64,000 nt of DNA from an uncultured virus (IMG/VR IMGVR_UViG_3300001605_000027) (IMGVR_UViG_3300001605_000027), one strand, 5' to 3'; shown: positions 21,572 through 64,000, counted from the stretch's first letter. The notes: generated by a model not told the origin, from the letters alone. A program made the numbers and translations.

Positions 21572-22447
21572 ATGCCAACCGCAGAAAAGAAAGTATCAGC
21601 TTACGATAAAGTGACCGACCGCCTGATCGAACTCATCGACGCCGGTGTCTGCCCATGGAAGCCAACGACAAATTGCCGATCCGCCCGCCCGGGCAAGAAT
21701 ATCAAGGGCAACAACTATCGAGGCATCAACGCCATGATGACGTGGGCAGTGGCATCGATTGAAGGCTACGCGTCTGACGTCTGGCTGACATTCAAGCAAG
21801 CCCAAGAAATGGGCGGCACGGTACGCAAAGGCCAAAAGGGCACGCCAATCATTTTTTGGGGCATCGTCGACGGCAAGGGCGACGAAGCCCCGGCTGATGA
21901 CAAGAAGTCGAAAGGCTACGCATTCGCCCGCTATTACGTGGCGTTCAATGTCGAGCAATGCGACGGCATCGACGTTGCCGATCTGCCCGACACCACGCGA
22001 TACGCAAACGATCCGATTGTAGCCGCTGAATCGATCGTCGCCGGGTTCAATGGGCCGAAGATCGCTCAGCGACTTTCGACGCCATGTTATAACTTCGTCG
22101 ACGACGTCGTTTACATGCCGCCGGTCGATCGTTTCGTATCGTCGGAAGCGTATTACGAGACGCTATTCCATGAGCTTGGCCACTCAACCGGCCACCATTC
22201 GCGACTGAATCGCGAAATGTCGCAAGACCGACCGAAGTATGCATTTGAAGAACTGGTCGCCGAAATGGCCGCCGCGTTCTTGTGTGACGAAGCCGGTATT
22301 TTGCCATCGGTCGAAACGAATGTTGCTGCTTACCTTGACGGATGGGGCAAGGCCATCAAAGCCGATCGGTCGATGCTTATCAAGGCATCATCCGCAGCCC
22401 AAAAGGCCGCCGATATGATTCTTGGCCGTCAATTCGCATCCGTGTAG
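21572..22447 (+). CDS. ardC: ArdC-like antirestriction protein (ssDNA-binding domain plus zincin domain)
   Basis: PWKP, YRGIN, WLTFKQAQEMGGTVRKGQKG, FNVEQ, HELGHSTGH, EELVAE. Confidence 0.85.
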   Translation: MPTAEKKVSAYDKVTDRLIELIDAGVCPWKPTTNCRSARPGKNIKGNNYRGINAMMTWAVASIEGYASDVWLTFKQAQEMGGTVRKGQKGTPIIFWGIVDGKGDEAPADDKKSKGYAFARYYVAFNVEQCDGIDVADLPDTTRYANDPIVAAESIVAGFNGPKIAQRLSTPCYNFVDDVVYMPPVDRFVSSEAYYETLFHELGHSTGHHSRLNREMSQDRPKYAFEELVAEMAAAFLCDEAGILPSVETNVAAYLDGWGKAIKADRSMLIKASSAAQKAADMILGRQFASV

Positions 22448-50690: not shown

Positions 50691-51606
50691 TATCCGATCT
50701 TTTGTTCGCCCGGTAACTGACGTGGCTTACGCGGATTCGCCAGATAGTTAGCCAGTATCGAATCGACAGGCTGGGTGCCGACAATCCGGGGATCGAGATA
50801 ACGCTTGGTCGTTTTTGGACTGGCATGATCCAATGCTTCCGACGGGTTGCCACCGGCTTCAGCCACCGCCGACGCGACGGTTCGGCGGATTCTATGAAAC
50901 TTCGATCGGCGGTCGGTCGGCAGTCCAGCCGCAGCCAACAACAACGTCAAAGCGTACGATAAATATAAGTGTCGCTTAATCCCCACGGGAATATCAGCGA
51001 TGTCGATGATCGCTTGTCACAAAGTCGTTTCAATCCTTCGGCGGTCGCCGGGCTGATCGGATAGAGTCGGTCACGCCGTTGGCCCTTACGCATGGCCGCC
51101 GGGACCAGCAGCCACTCATTCTGCCAGTGGCATCGCTTCAACTGCCTGATCGCTCCGATGCGTTCGCCGGTGTCGACGAGGCAACGTATCAGGGCCTCCC
51201 ACCATGCGGACGCAGGAACGTCAACGACAATGCCTTTCATCGCACGTGCCGCCGCGAACATCGACGCCAATTCATCGGGCATCCATCCCATCGGCACGAT
51301 CTCCGGTTCTTTCATCGACTGGATGTCTGGCCAATGGTCGACGATCCGATGCGTAGCAGCAAACCGCCACAAGGCCAACAACTGCGATCGATCTTTGTTT
51401 GCTGTTGCCGGTGATCGTCCCTCACGTGTGACACGCGACATATGATCGGCCACAGCGTCATTCGATAAGTCGCCAACGGTGGGCACCCGGCCAAGCGTCT
51501 TTCCGAAGCTATTCAGTGTGTGGTTGTAAAGCCTAATTGTGTTGTCCGATCGGAATCGCAACCGCTTTGATCGATACAACTGGAACAAGTCTTGCAAAGT
51601 CATCAT
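50690..51606 (-). CDS. int: Tyrosine integrase (split by a one-base frameshift near 50950)
   Basis: LVDTGERIGA (R) in the 5' part; FHRIRRT (HxxR) and LDHASPKTTKRY (H, Y) in the 3' part. Confidence 0.85.
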
Positions 51607-51825: not shown

Positions 51826-52050
51826 ATGTCAACAACCATGATAAATAATTGGCTCAACGTCAAAGAGGCCGCCCAGATTATGGGAGTGTCTGCGGACCAC
51901 GTTCGTCTGCTGGCACGTAATTCGAAAATCAATGCCGTACCGGCTTCCGAACGATGCTGGCTAATTGATCGGGATGCAGCCATTGCGTGGGCAAAAAAGC
52001 CATCTCGCACCGGTCGCCCCAGGGGTTCAACGGTAAAAACAAAAAAATAG
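51826..52050 (+). CDS. Excisionase/MerR-like HTH protein (Xis or regulator)
   Basis: WLNVKEAAQIMGVSADHVRLL...WLID...TGRPRG. Confidence 0.8.
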   Translation: MSTTMINNWLNVKEAAQIMGVSADHVRLLARNSKINAVPASERCWLIDRDAAIAWAKKPSRTGRPRGSTVKTKK

Positions 52051-55738: not shown

Positions 55739-57316
55739 TTGGCCACAACTGAACAACGGCTCGCAGCGGCCATGGCGGCTGCCGAGCGTGGGTTGCGTAT
55801 CGTCATCCTGCAAGACCACAACGGGACGCCGAAGTTCCGCAAGCGACCGGTCGGCACAGATTGGGGGATCAAAGCCACCGACGACGAAGAAGCGTTGATC
55901 CGCCGGTTCGACAAACGCCCCGACGCCAACATCGGCGTGCTGCTTGGCAAGTATCCCGAAGGCTCGAAGATTCCCGGCGTGATCGACGTCGAGTTCGATT
56001 GCGAGGAAGGACGCATCACCGCCGAGCGGTTGTTCGGTGCCAATACGTTCACGCCGACTTACAAATCAGCCCGATCCGTCCATCGGCTGTTTCTTTGGAA
56101 TGATGCTTTTCCGCCGGAGCAAAAACTTGCAATCGAAGGATTGGAGGTTCGACTGGGTGGTGGTGCAAAGCAGACGCAGTCCGTATTGCCGCCGTCGACT
56201 CACGAAGATGGCCGCGAATACCAGTGGTTGCCGGGATTGTCGATCGACGAAGTCGAATTGGCCGAAGTCCCGGAGATTCTCGCCGTCCAGTTTTGCAATG
56301 TCGAATCCAGATTAGAAGCCGAGGGGCTTTCGTCGGCTGCATCGGGCGGCCAACGCAAGCCCGACGAACATTGGGACAAACTCAAAGATGGCGTTGCCAA
56401 AGGATCGCGAAACGAATCACTTTGCAGTCTTGTTGGCCGATGGCTTACCAATCAAGTCGAAATCGACGTCGCCGAAATCAAAGAACGGGCGATCGATTGG
56501 GGAAAGCGGTGTGACCCGCCGCTATCAGCCAACGAATGCGAGTCGGTTGTCAGGTCAGTTGTCGGACGCGAACGGAAGCGACGGGCCGCCGAAGCCGAAC
56601 AGCAATCCGAGCAAGTCGCCGTGGCCGTGGCAACGCCGCCAACGAATCGAGTCTTCGGCGATGCCCCGCAGCCAGTCGCCCAGCCAGACCGGGGATCGCT
56701 GGCGTCCATCGGTATCGACCGCGTGCAGATTATCGAAAGCAAGCCACCGATGGTCATTCTCTTTTCCAAGGCGTTCGTCGATTCAAAGGATCACAGCATT
56801 ACTATGCCACTGGTTGATCTGCCTAATATCCGTCTTGTCCAAAACCACTCACTCGAACAATCGCAATCAATGCTCCCCGGTTCATGGCAGCGTCGCGGGG
56901 CGTGGCCGAAGATTTGCGCCAAGCTCATCGCCAACGCCGACAAGATTCAGCCCGATCCCGAACTCAACCGTCCGTCGATCATCGCCCGCCTTATCATCCG
57001 CTACGCCAGCCGATCGACCGGCTTCCTTACTTGCTCTGCCATTCGTGACAACGGCATGTCGAATCCGACGGGCATTGAGCAGTTGGACGATGGCCGCTGG
57101 ATCATCAGCGTTCAGGCGTTTTTCCGCTATCTCTGCGACGAACGGGCGTTGGAGCGAGTCACCCGCGAAGAAGTGCTGCGGGTCATTCGATCGGTCGATG
57201 CCCAGCATGTTAATTGGTCCGGTCGCTACTGGGTTCTCGACGATCTGGCGAAGCAAAAACTCGACTCTATCGAGGGGTGTGATGCTTCTACAAAGCATAG
57301 GGGGAATCAACAGTGA
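55739..57316 (+). CDS. Bifunctional primase-polymerase with PriCT domain
   Basis: DANIGVLLG, VIDVE, SVHRLF, SVLPPSTH..YQW, GSRNESL..CDPPLSANE. Confidence 0.8.
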   Translation: MATTEQRLAAAMAAAERGLRIVILQDHNGTPKFRKRPVGTDWGIKATDDEEALIRRFDKRPDANIGVLLGKYPEGSKIPGVIDVEFDCEEGRITAERLFGANTFTPTYKSARSVHRLFLWNDAFPPEQKLAIEGLEVRLGGGAKQTQSVLPPSTHEDGREYQWLPGLSIDEVELAEVPEILAVQFCNVESRLEAEGLSSAASGGQRKPDEHWDKLKDGVAKGSRNESLCSLVGRWLTNQVEIDVAEIKERAIDWGKRCDPPLSANECESVVRSVVGRERKRRAAEAEQQSEQVAVAVATPPTNRVFGDAPQPVAQPDRGSLASIGIDRVQIIESKPPMVILFSKAFVDSKDHSITMPLVDLPNIRLVQNHSLEQSQSMLPGSWQRRGAWPKICAKLIANADKIQPDPELNRPSIIARLIIRYASRSTGFLTCSAIRDNGMSNPTGIEQLDDGRWIISVQAFFRYLCDERALERVTREEVLRVIRSVDAQHVNWSGRYWVLDDLAKQKLDSIEGCDASTKHRGNQQ

Positions 57317-57540
57317 CAACACTTCAAAAACACAATTTTTCGGGGGGGTCGATGTCGCAAGTCGTTGCGGCGAAAGGTGTTTAGGAAACTTACTACACTG
57401 TCAACACTTTTTTGAAAAAATCGCAATTCGTAAAAACGTGTTGCAAGTGTTGACAGTGTTGACTAGCCCGCAATTTACGGGTCGAAAATGGGCAGGGGGG
57501 TCAACACTTCATGGTGAAGTGTTGACTGATTTGATAATTT
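57312..57540. other. Candidate replication origin with inverted iterons
   Basis: AT-rich gap after the primase; 15-bp perfect IR at 57395-57409/57445-57459 and 12-bp IR at 57500-57526, all built on TCAACACT. Confidence 0.65.
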
Positions 57541-57586
57541 AGACGGTCCCTCTTTTGGGCCGTACGGCTTACTAGAGGGGTGCATT

Positions 57587-59273
57587 TTGGCGACGGTGGC
57601 AAAGCTGATTGGCGGGGCTGGAACGGGCAAGACGACCGAGCTAATGCGGATCATGGGCGAGGTTATCGGGCATGGGGTCGATCCCTTTGAGATCGGCTAC
57701 GTGTCCTTCACCAAGGCGGCGATCATGGAAGCCGCCGGGCGGGTCGAGCAAGAGTTCGGGGTAGCCGCCGAGCATCTGACAAAGCAGGGGTGGTTCCGTA
57801 CTTTGCATTCGGTCTGCTACCAGTCCTTGGGGTCGATGGCCAAGGGCTTGCTGACCGACAGGAAGGCCGACCGGGAATGGCTCGAAGGCGTCCTGCAAGA
57901 GCATGTCGGCGAAGTCGTCAAGGCCATCGACGACGATCAAGGCTCTGGCGTCCGAGCGATGGCGATGGATGCCCAGTCGCCCGCATCGAACGCCCTGCGG
58001 ATATGGGCGATGGCCCGGTCCCGGCTATGCACGATCGACGAAGTGGTCGCCGAGCTATTGATCTGCGGCGAGACGCCGCCGCCGGTGGAGTATTGCCGCA
58101 AGATCGCCCATCAATACGAGCGGTCCAAGTATCTCGACGATCGGGTCGACTTCGCCGACTTGGCCGGTCGGTTTGCGGGCTGGCGGTGGAATCCCGATGG
58201 CGACCACGACTGGTTTGTCGATCCAATGGGCGAGACGCCGAATGTCCGCGTCTGGTTCTTCGACGAGCATCAAGACGTTAGCCGACTTCTGAACTCGGTG
58301 GCCCGGCGTCTGACCAATAGTCCGTCGTGCCAGTGGGCTTATTTCTCCGGCGATCCATTCCAATCGATCTTCGGGTTCGGCGGTGCGGACATGAATTGCT
58401 TTCTCGACATCGAAGCCGACCGCGAACGCACGATGGAGCGTTCCTTCCGGTGTCCCGAAAACGTCCTGCGGCTGGGCGAGCGGGCTTTGTCGCGGTGTTC
58501 CAATTACTTTGACCGTGGCATCGCCCCGAATGAACCCGGCGGACTGGTCGATTTTTCGTACCGTTACCGCGATCTGCTGACGACGCTCGATCTGTCGGCG
58601 ACCACGATCTTGACGGCCCGTACCAATCAGTTGGCCAGCCGGTTTATTCCCGCGTTGGATGAATCGGCCATTCCATGGATGCGGACAGAATCCGAACACG
58701 GCTATCTCTCTAAAGGCGCAAAAACAATTTGTTTTTTTCTGCGGGGATTAGAGATGGACATGAAAGAGCAAATTCCGCGCAAATTTCCGATCGGTTCGTG
58801 GCTCTCTCTTATAGAGAAGCTGCCAGTTGGTAAAGGCGAATCGGCGTTGTTCAGCCGTGGGACCAAGACGGCGGCCAAGGCCGGAACGTTGGGCGGCGAC
58901 CGATCCATGGTCACTTACGAGGATTTGGCATCGCTGGGGGCCACGGACTATCTGCTACGGACGATCGCCACCGGCCAATGGTCAAACGTCGTCGAAGGCG
59001 GCGAGCGATTCAGGCGGGCAGTGGCGGCCCATGGGATGGAAGTGGCCATGGAACCGAAAGTCCGCGTCGGCACCATCCATTCGGTCAAAGGGTCGGAGGC
59101 CGATACGGTGGTCATGCTCGACTCGCTGACGCGTCGCTGCGATATGAGCCGCCGCGTACCCCGCCGGTCGCGACGAAGAACAACGCGTGGCCTACGTCGG
59201 GATCACGCGGGCCAAGAAGCGGCTGCATATTCTTCGCCAACAGTCCGATCGCTGGCGGATGGATATCGAATGA
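57587..59273 (+). CDS. UvrD/Rep-like SF1 helicase (indel near 59160)
   Basis: GGAGTGKT, FDEHQD, GDPFQSIFGF, TIHSVKGSE; motif VI (EEQRVAYVGITRAK) lies in the shifted frame. Confidence 0.85.
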
Positions 59274-59770
59274 CTAAGACGCTCGACGATCTGCTGGCCG
59301 CCGTCCCGAAGCTACGGACCTACCGGCAATTGAACACGGCCCAATTGCGATACCTACTCGATCGGCTCGACGGCCAATGCACGTGGTGCGGACACGACGT
59401 CGGGCGTCGGCAGAACTGGTGCAGCGACGAATGCGTCGAATTGTTCCAGCTTCGATGCAGTCCGCCGCATCAAGCCAAGTTCGTCGTCGCCCGCGATGGC
59501 TACATCTGTCGATTGTGTGGTCGCGACACCATCGCCGCTGAGCAAGAGTTCCACCGCCAGTGGCATCAAGCGACTGACCGCCGAACAGCGGCCAAGCGGC
59601 AACTGATGGCATCGCTAGGCCATGGCCGGGCAGGGTGGCGGGAGGTCGATCATATCTTGCCCGTAGGCGACGGTGGCGGGCTGACTGGGCCGGAGAATCT
59701 GCGGTTACTTTGCGGGGCTTGCCATAGCGAAGTATCGAAGGGGCAAGCACTTAGGAACCAATCCGAATAA
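59270..59770 (+). CDS. HNH endonuclease
   Basis: RDGYICRLCG, EVDHILPVGDGGG...NLRLLCGACH; own ATGA start. Confidence 0.8.
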   Translation: MTKTLDDLLAAVPKLRTYRQLNTAQLRYLLDRLDGQCTWCGHDVGRRQNWCSDECVELFQLRCSPPHQAKFVVARDGYICRLCGRDTIAAEQEFHRQWHQATDRRTAAKRQLMASLGHGRAGWREVDHILPVGDGGGLTGPENLRLLCGACHSEVSKGQALRNQSE

Positions 59771-59778
59771 GTCGCTTG

Positions 59779-59815
59779 TTTTGCTGTTGACAGTTTATCG
59801 GTTAGCCGATAACAT
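59779..59815 (+). promoter_or_regulatory. Phage promoter family copy with palindromic operator
   Basis: TTTTGCTG-TTGACA-17-TAACAT containing TTATCGG-ttag-CCGATAA. Confidence 0.85.
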
Positions 59816-59842
59816 GGTTACTCGGTCGGTTTAATTCAGTCA

Positions 59843-60058
59843 ATGCAACGCGGAAACAAGAGAATGTTCAACGGATACAAAGTCAGCCATCCAAAACTTG
59901 ATTGCACGTATTCGGTGGTTTTGTCAAAGGAACAATATCACGAAGTGTGCAACCATCTTGGTGAAATGGGCGAAGGCGGAAAGTGCGAACGAATGTCAGA
60001 CTTGTCGATTGACACTAAGTTTGATTCGCTGGTTAAAGAATTGACGCGACACTATTAA
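59843..60058 (+). CDS. Small early protein
   Basis: First ORF after the promoter; its stop overlaps stem I of hammerhead 1. Confidence 0.55.
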   Translation: MQRGNKRMFNGYKVSHPKLDCTYSVVLSKEQYHEVCNHLGEMGEGGKCERMSDLSIDTKFDSLVKELTRHY

Positions 60059-60110
60059 CCCACTGACGAGCCGGTGCGATTCCGGCGAAACGCCCACGGG
60101 CGTATGGGTT
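60057..60110 (+). ncRNA. Type I hammerhead ribozyme 1
   Basis: AACCCA-CUGACGA-GCCGG(ugcgauu)CCGGC-GAAA-CGCC(cacg)GGCG-UA^UGGGUU; complete core and three stems. Confidence 0.9.
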
Positions 60111-60142
60111 CGACAACAATACTTCAACAGCAAGGCAAGACG

Positions 60143-60484
60143 ATGGCAACGACAGTAAAAACAACCCCAGCCCAACAAGCCGCCGAGTTCATGGGCCGAT
60201 GCAATTCGCTCGGTTGGAAAGTCGAACGAATCGACGATAGCGTAGTCACAATTACTAAGCGATTCGCAGCGGGCGACCGCGACGGCCTTGTCGAATGCGA
60301 CATGGAATACTACGACGTTTTGGGCATGTGCCCATTGAAAGGCGGTTCAGTTTGGGGAACTGACTGCGGCGGGCTTGGTGCGATATCGGCACTTAATAGC
60401 GGCGTGTTCCGAATGAACAAATCGGGGTCTGGTGGTAAGCGTTTTGCCGCCGAAGTTCGCAAGATCATGCTATCAACCCACTGA
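60143..60484 (+). CDS. 113-aa hypothetical protein bracketed by the hammerheads
   Basis: ATG 60143 after CAAGGCA; GGSVWGTDCGGLGA motif. Confidence 0.65.
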   Translation: MATTVKTTPAQQAAEFMGRCNSLGWKVERIDDSVVTITKRFAAGDRDGLVECDMEYYDVLGMCPLKGGSVWGTDCGGLGAISALNSGVFRMNKSGSGGKRFAAEVRKIMLSTH

Positions 60485-60527
60485 CGAGATCCCGGCGGGG
60501 ATCGAAACGCCAGCGATGGCGTATGGG
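60477..60527 (+). ncRNA. Type I hammerhead ribozyme 2
   Basis: CCCA-CUGACGA-GAUCCC(ggcg)GGGAUC-GAAA-CGCCA(gcga)UGGCG-UA^UGGG. Confidence 0.88.
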
Positions 60528-60557
60528 ATGCAACGACAACCACCAAGGGCCGATCAA

Positions 60558-61880
60558 ATGCTGAGAGTCATATTCCATTCGAACCGACAACGCGACGCGT
60601 TCATTCGCACCAGCGGCATTCAGTCGAATGAGATCGTTTCGGTAGGTTGTGGCGTGTTGTATGTCACTCAATCGGCGATCGATTGGTCGATCAACGATTG
60701 GGTGATGCGAGTCGAGAACGTTTAACAATTCAAGGCAACCACCAATGGCAACCGCAACCACCGTGCAAAACGCACTAGGCGAAACGTTCGACTTGTCGAC
60801 CATGACTGGATGGGAAGTGAAGAAACTGTGTCGTGAATTGACCGCTGAGTCGGTCATGTATGGCCACATTGAAGACGTAGCCAAGCGGGATTGGCTACGC
60901 GATCAGCGTGATATCGTCGACGCTGAGATTCGTCGGAAGTGCTACTAAGGATCAACCATGACAAATGACTGGCTACCACCACTCGCCGCCGACGCCGAGC
61001 AAGGCCGCGAGATAGTGNAACNTACCCCGACCGGATCANNCGTCCATGCGTCGGTATGTTCAGATCAATAGCACGCGGCGACCGTGCGACGTTGTATCGT
61101 GCTGGCACTGGTCAGTACGGTGGCCGTGGATGGGTGCCGATTCATAAGGTGCCGGTTCATCTGCGATCGTCGCTTTACGGAGTCCCCAACAACGATTGGC
61201 AGGATGCGTATTTCAAGACGCCGCAAGCAGCGGCAAAGATGCTTCACTCGATCGGTAAAGGCCCGGCCAATGTCCGCCAATCAGTGTAAGTGCCAAGGCT
61301 TCGGCTACTTCTACGGCAGCGAGATTCTCGGCTGGCGTCGCCGTCCATGGGATCGACTGACGTGTCGCGACTGCGGCAAGCCGTCGGCATGGCAGCGGCT
61401 ACTGTACTGGTGGTACGGCTATCGAAGCAATGCCCAAGCGATCGAGAGTCCGGCGAGTTATGTGTTGTCGAATCCACAATTCAATGGCGGCCAAGAGTGC
61501 GACGTCGAACGCGGCCCGTGTTCGTGCGGGGCTTGGCATGATGAAGTCGACCGTCCAACGTTTGATGATGATGTTTTTTAGTTCCTTTAACCTCACTAGG
61601 TGAAATGATGACAGTGGCAGAAGTTGAGCAAGTCGAACAATCGAGTCGACAAGATAATTCGATCGAGAGCCGGGTTGCCCGCAGTCTGGCAATCGCTCGA
61701 TATATCCGGGCCGTAGCGAAGTTTGAAAACGCGTCGCGAGACTTCAACGACGCGTGCCAGCACGTCCGCGAAGTTGCCGAGCATGGCAGCCGTTTCGTTA
61801 CAACCGTCGATTACAAGAGCTACCTTGTAACCGTCGAAAACGACGGATCGTTCGAAGTCGTTCCGATCGACGTTATCTGA
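60558..61880 (+). CDS. Further small early genes (60558-60725, 60745-60948, about 60958-61289 with n's, about 61269-61581, 61605-61880)
   Basis: Co-oriented short ORFs, the first two with CAAGG leaders. Confidence 0.5.
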
Positions 61881-61892
61881 TTTTTTGCCAAC

Positions 61893-61930
61893 GTTTATCC
61901 GTTGACAGATAAACCGACGGCGTATAAGAT
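61893..61930 (+). promoter_or_regulatory. Phage promoter family copy
   Basis: TTGACA(61902)-17-TAAGAT; the -35 is flanked by the inverted repeat GTTTATC/GATAAAC. Confidence 0.7.
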
Positions 61931-62023
61931 TCTCAAAGCCAGCTTGGCAAGTGGCAATAACAAGTCCGGTCGGTCCCGCAGCCAAGGCGGGGCCGACCAT
62001 TCCTTACACTTCACGACGGATCG

Positions 62024-63197
62024 ATGGTTCAGACGATCAAACAACTATCGACCGACCAGGAATCCGCCGTCGCGTCGATTCGTGCGTTTGTCCGATCGGG
62101 CAGCCAGCAGTTGACGATGGGCGGCCTCGCTGGAACCGGCAAGACGTCGATCATGTCGTACCTGTGGCCAGAACTGATGGCCGCCGGTGCCTATGTGATT
62201 ACGCCGACGGGCAAGGCTGCGAGTGTCCTACGCAAGAAAGGCATCGACCGCGTATCGACGATTCATGCGTTGTTGTATTTGTTTCGCGGCGTCGTCGACG
62301 ACGTCCGCACCGGTGAAAAGCCGATATTCGACAATCGCCACGATGGCGATTGGGGCTGCGATATCACGCCGAAGATGCTTGTGTGCGACGAGGCATCAAT
62401 GGTCAACAGCCAATGTTATGACGACGTCATGGCCCGCGACGTCCCCGTTATATGGGTCGGCGACCACGGCCAGCTTGCCCCGGTCGGCGGCGATCCCGGC
62501 ATCATGCGAGATCCCGACATCCGACTCGAAAAGATTCACCGTCAAGCCGAAGGCAACCCCATCTTAGACCTAGCGTTGGCCGTCCGCCATGGATTGTCGA
62601 CCGAGCGATTCCGCGACTTCGCCGACGGCGACCGCTTGAAGATCGGCGGCATCCTCGATGATCGGCGGCTTGTGAAGTACGCAAGGGACAACGAGATAGA
62701 TCAAGTGATCGTCGGCGTCAACGGCAAGAACCGTCGACGACTACGGGTCAAGGCATAAGATCAACCGGCTATTCCGCGAGTCCTACGGATTCAAAGATGA
62801 TTTGTGTGTCGGCGACCGGCTGATTTGTACGTTCAACAATCGACGGCGTGGGATCAGCAACGGTGAGATATTCCGCGTCGATGCGATCGAGTTTTCGACG
62901 GCGACTTATCACAACTGCTATCTATCGAGTGAAACCGCCGACGGATGGGAGCCGCTGGGCAAGTCGATCAACGTACAGCGGATATCGCTGGGCAACCCGG
63001 ATTACCGGTCGGCGGATCGCGTCCCTGACTGCGGCGAGTTCGATTATGGCCATGGGATCACCGCCCACAAAAGCCAAGGGTCGCAATGGCGTCGCTGCTT
63101 AGTGGTGCATCGCAACGTCCATGCGTTCGATATGGATCGCTGGGCTTATACGGGTTTTACGAGGCCGTCGGAACATTTGAGTGTGGTGATACGATGA
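62024..63197 (+). CDS. RecD/Dda-like SF1B helicase (frameshifted near 62730-62800)
   Basis: GLAGTGKT, TPTGKAA, CDEASMV, VGDHGQL, HRQAEGNPI; then TAHKSQGSQW and YTGFTR in the second frame. Confidence 0.85.
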
Positions 63198-63661
63198 CAA
63201 CAACAACCACCCCAAAGATCGACGTCGCCAACATCGTGCTAGCGTCGTTCTTCGACGGCAGAATCGAACGTCGCAAGGGCGGCATGTATGTTTGCTGGAC
63301 TGACCGCCACAACGGCGACGTCTCGAAACGATGGCAGTGTCGCGGCCAAGACTTCTATCCGGTGTGGCACCATAAGTATCCCGGTGGCGGGACATCATCG
63401 ACGGCGTTAAGCCAACTGATTCGCTGGGTGCAAGGCAAACCTGCGTTGCCGATATCGACGTGGCGAATGTGGGCGAGCGAGAGTTGCAGTCTGTTGCCGA
63501 TCGAAGCCGTCCAGCAATTGATCGTCGGCGGCTATCCGCAGAGCGTCGATTGTGTGCTGTGTAAGAAGCAGATCGAAGGCCGATTGGATTGGTGGAGTCT
63601 CGACGGCGTGACAGGTCCGTGTTGTGGTTATACGAGTGGTTGTAGGCAAAAGACACAATGA
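63194..63661 (+). CDS. Hypothetical Trp/Cys-rich protein
   Basis: ATGA-coupled ORF (MTTTTTPKID). Confidence 0.55.
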   Translation: MTTTTTPKIDVANIVLASFFDGRIERRKGGMYVCWTDRHNGDVSKRWQCRGQDFYPVWHHKYPGGGTSSTALSQLIRWVQGKPALPISTWRMWASESCSLLPIEAVQQLIVGGYPQSVDCVLCKKQIEGRLDWWSLDGVTGPCCGYTSGCRQKTQ

Positions 63662-63903
63662 ACAAGACACTCGTAGCCATCGCCGCAATCGGAGTGCTTG
63701 TCGGATTCAACGCCGGGCAAGCGTATGAACGCTATCGAACGACGAAACCGAATCGTCGAAGATATCCGCCGGATCGAAGCCGAGCGTTAAGTGCTAGACT
63801 TCGAACGTCGAAGGCTAGAATCGATTCAGTTATGGGAAAGCAAGATATGACCAACATCGAAACCATCCGCCAAGGCATTCGACCCCGTTTGCCGAAGCGT
63901 TGA
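63658..63903 (+). CDS. Hypothetical protein with N-terminal TM segment
   Basis: ATGA overlap; hydrophobic N-terminus. Confidence 0.45.
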   Translation: MNKTLVAIAAIGVLVGFNAGQAYERYRTTKPNRRRYPPDRSRALSARLRTSKARIDSVMGKQDMTNIETIRQGIRPRLPKR

Positions 63904-64000
63904 AAGCCAACGAGACCGATACGCTGGGCAGGCTGACCGAAGGTGAAAAGATACTGTTTTGGACTGCGGGATCGTGGACTGAAGCCAAACGCGTCACGCT

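What the first reader, a model, noticed from the sequence alone, without database searches (positions are those of the whole stretch)
60057..60527. Two tandem hammerhead ribozymes excise a single-gene RNA from a phage early transcript
Seen: two complete type I hammerhead cores (CUGACGA...GAAA...GUA^) on the transcribed strand, 240-710 nt downstream of a family promoter. Stems II and III differ in sequence between the copies yet both pair, which points to selection on structure. Predicted cuts after 60104 and 60523 would release a 419-nt RNA holding exactly one ORF (60143-60484) and its CAAGGCA leader. Established: hammerhead cleavage leaves 5'-OH and 2',3'-cyclic phosphate ends, the substrate of RtcB ligases, and 5'-OH RNAs resist 5'-monophosphate-stimulated decay. 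Inference: the phage chops its early polycistron into stabilised monocistronic, possibly circular, mRNAs, or this is a ribozyme-bounded mobile gene cassette.
Basis: partly seen in the sequence, partly recalled or inferred. Interest (0 to 1): 0.92.

Follow-up and report, generated by a model that had tools for sequence, protein, structure and literature searches.

The report
Two hammerhead ribozymes between phage genes
Two genuine-looking self-cutting hammerhead RNA motifs sit between small genes of an uncultured tailed phage and most likely chop its long early message into single-gene pieces, an arrangement already described for phages in 2011, so this is a well-supported but ordinary example.

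Summary
Two complete type I hammerhead motifs lie on the + (coding) strand. HH1 is 60057-60110, cut after A60104. HH2 is 60474-60530, cut after A60523. A descriptor scan finds only these two in the window. In 300 shuffles no hit had stems as long.

Rfam does not call them: 0 hits at gathering score. In narrow scans the best or near-best sub-threshold hits are hammerhead families, at 15.5-17.8 bits. A model built only from 113 metagenome relatives finds exactly these two, at 61.0 and 58.8 bits.

The family is widespread in phage contigs and its stems covary strongly: 16 of 19 pairs carry compensatory changes. Some contigs carry arrays of 14 and 22 copies.

The cuts would release a 419-nt RNA holding one gene, ORF B (60143-60484). 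Its TGA stop lies inside the HH2 core.

Perreault et al. 2011 already described hammerheads flanking single genes in prophages. They proposed this processing role and looked for circles without finding any. The ribozymes do not travel with ORF B: 0 of 67 loci. No RNA data exist.

This scan has noted hammerheads in intergenic gaps before on other DNA: 122 notes, several of those shown in phages. Verdict: new member of a known kind.

The parts
59787..59815 (+). Promoter-like site TTGACA-17-TAACAT, 28 nt upstream of ORF A
   Evidence: The form TTGACA-N16-18-TAANAT occurs only twice in the window (59787 and 61902, both +). Expected by chance: 0.01.
59843..60058 (+). ORF A (71 aa, no family). Its TAA stop (60056-58) overlaps the first two bases of HH1 stem I
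   Evidence: No Pfam or PHROG hit.
60057..60110 (+). HH1, type I hammerhead. Predicted self-cleavage between A60104 and U60105
   Evidence: Model R2, built without window sequences, scores it 61.0 bits, E 4.8e-15. Rfam is sub-threshold only.
60105..60523 (+). Predicted 419-nt excised RNA: 5'-OH end, 38-nt leader with AAGG ribosome site, ORF B, and HH2 body at the 3' end with a 2',3'-cyclic phosphate
   Evidence: Coordinates. The end chemistry is established hammerhead chemistry and was not tested here.
60143..60484 (+). ORF B (113 aa), a conserved hypothetical phage protein. Its TGA stop (60482-84) is U4-G5-A6 of the HH2 core
   Evidence: 42 homologues, all unnamed or 'hypothetical'. Confident AlphaFold model, pLDDT 93. 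No clear structural relative.
60474..60530 (+). HH2, type I hammerhead. Predicted self-cleavage between A60523 and U60524
   Evidence: R2 scores it 58.8 bits, E 2.1e-14. Rfam Hammerhead_1 gives a full-length alignment at 15.5 bits, below the gathering score of 34.
60558..60725 (+). ORF C (55 aa from ATG 60558, preceded by AAGGG; or 65 aa from the in-frame ATG 60528, 4 nt after the cut)
   Evidence: No family hit.
60745..60948 (+). ORF D (67 aa), preceded by CAAGGCA. No hammerhead lies between ORF C and ORF D

Best explanation
HH1 and HH2 are functional type I hammerhead self-cleaving ribozymes. They sit in the intergenic gaps of a + strand early/replication operon of an uncultured, probably temperate, tailed phage.

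Each ribozyme starts at or overlaps the stop codon of the upstream gene. Each ends 34-38 nt before the next start codon.

As the operon is transcribed, each ribozyme folds and cuts itself after A60104 and after A60523. The message is thereby split into three parts:
1. An ORF A RNA that ends in the HH1 body with a 2',3'-cyclic phosphate.
2. A 419-nt single-gene ORF B RNA with a 5'-OH, a short leader with a ribosome site, and the HH2 body at its 3' end.
3. A downstream RNA starting at 60524.

The likely benefit, which is inferred, is that each gene's RNA stability and translation become independent of its neighbours. This resembles the ribozyme 'insulators' used in synthetic operons.

Shown here: motif, fold, covariation, strand and gene context. 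Inferred: cleavage in vivo and its benefit.
For: Motif and chance:
- The core is complete and all three helices are present in both copies.
- They are the only two descriptor hits in the window, with 0 comparably stemmed hits in 300 shuffles.
- The minimum-energy fold equals the hammerhead junction.

Family and covariation:
- Of 103 distinct instances, 93 have >=4 bp in both stem II and stem III. Shuffled inserts reach this in 9% (stem II) and 19% (stem III).
- On 100 distinct aligned sequences, 16 of 19 pairs show compensatory changes and 88.8% of cells pair. With slid partners, 23-42% pair.
- Model R2, built without window sequences, finds exactly HH1 and HH2 and nothing else at E<=10.

Strand and context:
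- All long flanking genes are on +, and there is a promoter-like site at 59787.
- Of 132 family instances, 126 follow a same-strand open frame of >=40 codons. In 97 of them the stop sits at offset -8, -7 or +1 from C3.
- The median distance from the cut to the next start is 30 nt.
- The picture is the same without the multi-copy phage: 82 of 108.
- Arrays of 14 and 22 same-strand copies separate small ORFs in other phage contigs.

Literature:
- Perreault 2011 (PMC3088659, passages read) reports that three tandem prophage arrangements cleave in vitro and that the A. tumefaciens ribozymes cleave in vivo.
Against: - No experiment and no RNA reads exist for this phage.
- Rfam's curated hammerhead models score both copies far below gathering score.
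- Stem I is short (4-6 bp), and I found no clear stem I/loop II tertiary contact, which natural hammerheads need for fast cleavage at cellular Mg2+. There is only a weak hint.
- The cleavage triplet is GUA. In the family 120 of 139 use GUC.
- The family alignment was gathered with a pattern taken from the window's own motifs, so stem I conservation in it is an artefact of the search.
- Only one of the several small genes in this stretch is bracketed, and nothing explains why.
Confidence: 0.8

Rival explanations
1. Circular single-gene mRNA. After both cuts, the 5'-OH end (UGGGUU, 60105-10) docks onto the stem I 5' strand of HH2 (AACCCA, 60475-80). This rebuilds a complete hammerhead at the junction. 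The ribozyme's reverse reaction or a host RtcB-type ligase then seals a 419-nt circle encoding ORF B.
For: - The two ends can form 6 continuous pairs (A60480-U60105 to A60475-U60110). This is better than HH2's own stem I of 4 bp, a mismatch and 2 bp.
- Copies within one phage share stem I, for example all 14 in G001.
- The end chemistry is the substrate of RtcB (established knowledge, recalled).
Against: - Shared stem I is expected anyway for paralogous copies.
- A 4-6 bp stem I favours product release over religation.
- Perreault et al. state they could not detect circular or spliced products.
- No RtcB or RNA-ligase family appears among 27 + 57 window proteins scanned, one of them given twice. 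The window is only part of the genome.
Confidence: 0.07
2. Recombination module or mobile cassette boundary. The ~60-nt hammerhead plus leader is a conserved intergenic module. At the DNA level it serves as a homology patch for swapping small genes between phages. RNA cleavage is secondary, or serves the spread of the module itself.
For: - The hammerhead is the only stretch of 57000-64000 that matches other phage loci, over 33-94 nt at 74-94% identity.
- The genes between copies differ from phage to phage.
- In 97 of 126 cases the upstream gene's stop codon abuts or lies inside the module.
- In run X5, contigs of a relative match HH1 plus leader up to 60151 and then continue with unrelated sequence. 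This is one contig per loose end at 80% likeness, so it is weak.
Against: - Compensatory changes that keep RNA pairing, and a strand-specific invariant core, show selection on the RNA rather than on DNA identity.
- 0 of 67 loci with ORF B relatives have the ribozyme nearby, so gene and ribozyme do not move as a unit.
- This reading does not exclude the processing role.
Confidence: 0.15
3. Translation-gated or otherwise regulated cleavage. The upstream stop codon lies in or against the ribozyme's 5' arm, so a terminating ribosome covers stem I and the core. The cut would then depend on how heavily the upstream gene is translated. Alternatively the cut destabilises the downstream RNA, as in glmS, rather than stabilising it.
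For: - Stop codons sit at fixed offsets -8, -7 and +1 in 97 of 126 instances. In 28 of them the UGA of the CUGA core itself is the stop, as in HH2.
- Perreault et al. raise regulated cleavage for phage hammerheads.
Against: - Tight packing of genes is common in phages and may be enough to explain the offsets.
- Cleavage may occur before the first ribosome arrives.
- No ligand-binding or switch element is evident.
- The effect of a 5'-OH on decay depends on the unknown host's RNases (recalled knowledge).
Confidence: 0.12
4. Inactive look-alikes: chance or decayed motifs with no cleavage activity.
For: - Rfam sub-threshold scores.
- No tertiary contact identified.
Against: - 0 comparably stemmed hits in 300 shuffles.
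- Two copies 418 nt apart on the coding strand.
- Intact cores, covariation across 100 relatives, and 61 and 59 bits with an outside model.
Confidence: 0.03

Closest known systems
Clustered hammerhead ribozymes of prophages and phages (Perreault et al. 2011, PLoS Comput Biol, PMC3088659)
   Same: - Several hammerheads in gene orientation flank single genes or short gene blocks, and the genes vary from case to case.
- Proposed role: processing long phage transcripts into single-gene mRNAs.
- Circular products were considered as an alternative.
   Different: - This is a type I sub-family with a 4-6 bp CCCA/UGGG stem I that Rfam's models miss at threshold.
- The stop codon of the upstream gene is built into or abuts the ribozyme.
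- Related contigs carry 14 and 22 copies, whereas the passages I read mention triple arrangements.
- I could not check whether this sub-family is in their alignments. The supplement text held no searchable sequence.
Rfam Hammerhead_1 (RF00163), clan CL00010
   Same: Same core, same open-stem-I topology. Full-length alignment of HH2 to the model.
   Different: 15.5 bits against a gathering score of 34. HH1 aligns best to a truncated Hammerhead_3. No extended stem I with an internal loop.
Viroid, satellite and retrozyme hammerheads that yield circular RNAs (de la Pena et al. 2020, PMC7761336, passages read)
   Same: Two hammerheads bracket a unit-length RNA, and the ends are ligatable.
   Different: Those RNAs replicate or retrotranspose, are mostly type III or metazoan type I, and their circles are documented. 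Here a DNA phage operon and a protein-coding insert are involved, and no circle is shown.
Synthetic ribozyme insulators in operons (for example RiboJ; recalled, not from a call)
   Same: Works alike: a self-cleaving hammerhead between transcript parts gives the downstream gene a defined 5' end and leader.
   Different: Engineered parts, not a natural family. This is a comparison of mechanism only.

Membership tests
Hammerhead ribozyme (class) | Core C3 U4 G5 A6 N7 G8 A9 ... G12 A13 A14 ... A15.1-U16.1, H17 not G | tested here: met
   Both copies read CUGACGA ... GAAA ... GUA with A15.1-U16.1 paired. These are the acceptance criteria quoted in Perreault 2011 Methods.
Hammerhead ribozyme (class) | Three helices around the core, with intact pairs next to the core (1.1-2.1, 10.1-11.1, 15.1-16.1) | tested here: met
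   U1.1-A2.1, G10.1-C11.1 and A15.1-U16.1 are present in both copies. The minimum-energy fold gives the junction.
Hammerhead ribozyme (class) | Helices supported by covariation in relatives | tested here: met
   15 of 19 pairs on 22 sequences. 16 of 19 pairs on 100 distinct sequences. 93 of 103 pattern instances pair in stems II and III, against 9% and 19% of shuffles.
Hammerhead ribozyme (class) | Tertiary contact between stem I and stem/loop II | tested here: inconclusive
   Loop II is a GGNR-like tetraloop or a 7-nt UGNNAYY loop. Complementarity of >=4 nt between longer loops and the 3' flank occurs in 44% against 22% of shuffles. No defined contact was found for HH1 or HH2.
Hammerhead ribozyme (class) | Mg2+-dependent self-cleavage leaving a 2',3'-cyclic phosphate and a 5'-OH | not testable with these tools
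   No RNA run holds the stretch.
Rfam Hammerhead_1 / clan CL00010 | Score at or above the curated gathering threshold | tested here: not met
   0 hits at gathering score. Best scores are 17.8, 15.5 and 13.7 bits against 48.5, 34 and 56.3.
Type I topology | Stem I open; stems II and III closed by loops | tested here: met
Clustered phage/prophage hammerheads (Perreault 2011) | Two or more hammerheads in gene orientation flanking single genes in a phage genome | tested here: met
   The phage nature of the window is shown by capsid, portal, tape measure, protease and integrase families. HH1 and HH2 bracket ORF B on the coding strand.
Ribozyme-derived circular RNA (viroid-like / retrozyme) | Detectable covalently closed RNA with the cut-site junction | not testable with these tools
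   No RNA data. Only the end complementarity can be read from the sequence.

The most novel reading that the evidence does not exclude
The excised single-gene RNAs are circularised. All hammerheads of one phage share stem I, so the 5'-OH end left by the upstream ribozyme fits the downstream ribozyme (6 bp here). This rebuilds a closed hammerhead that the ribozyme itself or a host RtcB could ligate. Phages with 14-22 such ribozymes would then make a set of circular, exonuclease-proof mRNAs. A milder variant: the stop codon built into the ribozyme couples cleavage to translation of the upstream gene.
Probability: 0.07. Interest if true: 0.8.

Novelty: new member of a known kind. Interest (0 to 1): 0.3.

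Why it matters
What bacterial and phage hammerheads are for is still an open question (review PMC6765202, passages read).

This locus adds no new principle. It does give a clean, small test case:
- One promoter-like site, two ribozymes and one conserved gene within about 750 nt.
- A family with very regular geometry: stop codon, then ribozyme, then a ~30-nt leader, then the next start.
- Related contigs with 14-22 copies.

Such loci are convenient for measuring whether cleavage changes RNA half-life or translation. They also show that Rfam's current hammerhead thresholds miss a common phage sub-family.

Tried and rejected
- Rfam at gathering score on the whole window gave nothing. At E<=10 on 801 nt it gave only an sR43 chance hit.
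- The whole genome of the window is not held.
- blastn of 59780-60760 and of HH1 alone against GenBank phages gave no match. tblastn of the portal protein also gave no match.
- Close relatives sought via the UvrD-HNH helicase in viral contigs: none found.
- Expression: no RNA holder is listed for 59800-60800, so expression, ends and circles could not be examined.
- Laying contigs of run X5: there is no cover over 60206-60473, and one low-confidence joint 60151>60475 (side 25 nt, 80% likeness). I treat this only as a weak hint of gene replacement.
- ORF B function:
  - No Pfam or PHROG hit.
  - Foldseek against PDB: no match at E<=0.001.
  - VIA-align wide: best Z 5.2, within the background range stated by the tool.
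- Genes between the 14 hammerheads of G001: only one of 14 ORFs has a Pfam family, DUF932.
- Supplement of Perreault 2011 searched for the motif strings: no occurrence. The held text appears not to carry searchable sequences, so this says nothing about whether the sub-family was already listed.
- Literature searches for stop-codon overlap or large arrays turned up nothing specific. These were search listings plus passages of PMC6765202, PMC8782182 and PMC7761336.
- L014, one of the 12 viral pattern matches, does not fold as a hammerhead (12.6 bits) and was left out of the alignment.

Full report
**What is there**

The window is a tailed-phage genome fragment.
- Structural genes: prohead protease, capsid, tape measure and portal.
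- Integrase pieces and an HTH_17 gene near 50.7-52.0 kb.
- A + strand replication block from 52 kb to the window end: SNF2 helicase, primase-polymerase, UvrD-HNH helicase and a RecD-like helicase.
- It matches no GenBank phage, either by DNA over 59780-60760 or by portal protein.

Between the UvrD-HNH gene (ends 59770) and the RecD-like gene (starts 62024) lie several small + strand ORFs. A promoter-like TTGACA-17-TAACAT site sits at 59787-59815. The only other site of that form in the window is at 61902, also on +. The number expected by chance is 0.01.

**The two motifs**

Read, HH1 (60057-60110) and HH2 (60474-60530) each have:
- the full hammerhead core (CUGACGA, GAAA, U16.1, H17 = A);
- G10.1-C11.1 and A15.1-U16.1 pairs;
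- closed stems II and III and an open stem I, which is type I topology.

Predicted cuts fall after A60104 and A60523.

ORF A (59843-60058) ends with a TAA that overlaps HH1 stem I. ORF B (60143-60484) ends with a TGA that is U4-G5-A6 of the HH2 core. The interval between the cuts is 419 nt and holds only ORF B, behind a 38-nt leader carrying CAAGGCA.

The two copies share a 19-nt 5' segment, 18 of 19 identical. They have entirely different stem II sequences. Stem III differs only in its last pair and its loop.

**Is it more than chance?**

- A type I descriptor finds only these two on both strands of the 64 kb.
- 300 dinucleotide shuffles gave 11 loose hits in all, and none with stems of >=4/5/5 bp.
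- The minimum-energy fold of each + strand segment is the hammerhead junction. The minus strand folds equally well, as complements do, but lacks the core.

- No family reaches its gathering score anywhere in the window.
- No hammerhead appears at E<=10 on 801 nt.
- On ~80-nt slices hammerhead families lead the list by bit score. For HH1 a chance sR43 hit has the slightly lower E-value:
  - Hammerhead_3, truncated, 17.8 bits for HH1.
  - Hammerhead_1, full length, 15.5 bits, and RAGATH-1-hammerhead, 13.7 bits, for HH2.
- All are far below the thresholds of 34-56 bits.

Formal Rfam membership is therefore not met. The reason appears to be a short stem I and loop and stem lengths unlike the seed alignments.

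**Relatives**

A pattern fixing only part of the core and stem I found 12 viral-contig loci.
- Two loci are the same place.
- 11 of the 12 fold as hammerheads, two of them with a mismatch or bulge.
- One, L014, does not fold.

Aligning 22 instances gave 15 of 19 pairs with compensatory changes and model R1. With R1, the contigs behind five loci hold 14, 5, 2, 2 and 1 copies.

That pattern imposes no pairing in stems II and III.
- Of 103 distinct instances, 93 have >=4 contiguous pairs in both stems.
- Shuffled inserts reach this in 9% (stem II) and 19% (stem III).

R1 over 77 of the 127 metagenome loci gave 113 matches. I left out the five loci of the multi-copy contig and most of the ~650-nt loci. 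On the 100 distinct rows:
- 16 of 19 pairs show compensatory changes;
- 88.8% of cells pair, against 23-42% with slid partners.

This alignment is fitted to the model and was gathered with a window-derived pattern. Stem I conservation in it therefore means nothing. Stems II and III are free.

Model R2, built from those 113 sequences only, finds exactly HH1 (61.0 bits) and HH2 (58.8 bits) in the window, and nothing else at E<=10.

**Context across the family**

I analysed 132 distinct instances with enough flank, taken from all loci plus the window.
- 126 follow a same-strand open frame of >=40 codons whose stop lies within -40..+4 of C3.
- In 97 of them the stop is at offset -8, -7 or +1. It abuts stem I, or it is the UGA of the core.
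- On the opposite strand, 36 of 132 have such a frame.
- The distance from the cut to the next start has a median of 30 nt (interquartile range 25-37).
- Leaving out the multi-copy phage gives 82 of 108 at those three offsets, among 113 instances.

HH1 (offset -7, leader 38 nt) and HH2 (offset +1, leader 34 nt to ATG 60558) fit this geometry.

In G001, 14 same-strand copies within 7.4 kb separate small ORFs. A metagenome contig of the same phage type carries 22 copies in about 10 kb (L060 plus L063).

**Does the ribozyme pair travel with the gene?**

ORF B is a real conserved gene.
- It has 42 homologues, none named.
- Its AlphaFold model is confident, pLDDT 93.
- It has no family or clear fold match.

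Among 67 loci encoding relatives (28-57% identical), none has an R1 hammerhead within 1.5 kb at E<=1. Rfam finds no ribozyme in 20 of them. Conversely, the hammerhead is the only part of 57000-64000 that matches any fetched locus.

Gene and ribozymes are therefore independent. [quoted passage not shown]

Contigs of a relative in run X5 match HH1 and its leader and then diverge after 60151. This is a weak hint that genes are swapped next to the ribozyme.

**What is known**

Perreault et al. 2011 (PMC3088659; passages read) report the following.
[quoted passage not shown] - Three tandem arrangements were tested in vitro, and the A. tumefaciens ribozymes also in vivo.

A 2019 review (PMC6765202, passages) still lists the purpose as undefined. 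cyPhyRNA-seq detected three type II hammerheads cleaving in Desulfovibrio near phage-like genes (PMC8782182, passages). All three topologies are reported from phages (PMC7761336, passages).

This scan itself holds 122 notes with these words on other genomes.

**Mechanism and odds**

I put 0.8 on genuine self-cleaving hammerheads that cut the operon RNA at the two sites and release a single-gene ORF B RNA.

The benefit is inferred from end chemistry and from recalled knowledge of 5'-end-dependent RNases. It could be separate stability and translation for each gene, with the ribozyme body as a structured 3' end and a 5'-OH on the downstream piece. It depends on the unknown host.

Other readings:
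- Circular RNA stays possible, because the ends can form a 6-bp stem I with HH2. It has no positive evidence, and I give it 0.07.
- A role of the conserved module as a recombination patch (0.15) is not exclusive with processing.
- Coupling of cleavage to upstream translation (0.12) is also not exclusive.
- Inactive look-alikes: 0.03.

**Verdict**

Interest is modest.

The points worth keeping are:
- the sub-family that Rfam misses;
- the stop-codon/ribozyme geometry;
- the 14- and 22-copy arrays.

Noticed in passing
L040 (G001:C1:1-9500); L060 and L063 (one metagenome contig): Very large same-strand hammerhead arrays. One viral contig has 14 copies in 7.4 kb. A metagenome contig of the same phage type has 22 copies in about 10 kb. 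Each copy separates a small ORF. Stem II is almost identical between copies and stem III varies with compensatory changes. Only one of 14 intervening ORFs has a Pfam family, DUF932.
   Followed up: partly
window 60056-60058 and 60482-60484; family-wide in fetched loci: The stop codon of the upstream gene is built into the ribozyme module. In 97 of 126 instances it sits at offset -8, -7 or +1 from C3. In 28 instances it is the UGA of the CUGA core itself. I found no mention of this in the papers searched.
   Followed up: partly
window 60528-60530: An ATG 4 nt after the HH2 cut is in frame with ORF C, giving 65 aa instead of 55. After cleavage it would be a nearly leaderless start. Eight instances in all, HH2 among them, show a 4-nt distance from cut to start.
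   Followed up: no
family alignment (loci L003-L168): Loop II falls into two classes: tetraloops GGGA/GGCG/GGAA/GGCA, and 7-nt loops of the form UGNNAYY. The longer loops show >=4 nt complementarity to the 25 nt after stem I in 44% of cases, against 22% of shuffles. This is a possible pseudoknot-type tertiary contact.
   Followed up: partly
window 62024-62758 and 62802-63197 (+): A RecD-like helicase is split into two ORFs, AAA_30/PIF1-like and then UvrD_C_2. A TAA at 62756-58 and a change of frame separate them. This could be a frameshift, a sequencing error or a real split.
   Followed up: no
window 50693-50986 and 50950-51606 (-): A tyrosine integrase appears as two overlapping ORFs, a SAM-like N-terminal domain and a weak catalytic-domain hit. 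An HTH_17 gene at 51826-52047 (+) lies next to them. This suggests a temperate phage with a possibly broken integrase.
   Followed up: no
window 21572-22444 (+): An ArdC-like anti-restriction protein with a zincin metallopeptidase domain. Perreault et al. note hammerheads flanking ardA in A. tumefaciens, but here no hammerhead is nearby.
   Followed up: no
window 57587-59770 (+): A UvrD-type helicase fused to a C-terminal HNH endonuclease domain.
   Followed up: no
window 54317, 61018, 61022, 61039, 61040: Five N bases in the window. Those at 61018-61040 lie in the small-gene region just downstream of the finding.
   Followed up: no
window 60054-60151, run X5: Contigs of a relative from another habitat match HH1 and the ORF B leader at 80-95% and then continue with unrelated sequence after 60151. 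Depth peaks over both hammerheads, as expected for a multi-copy element.
   Followed up: partly
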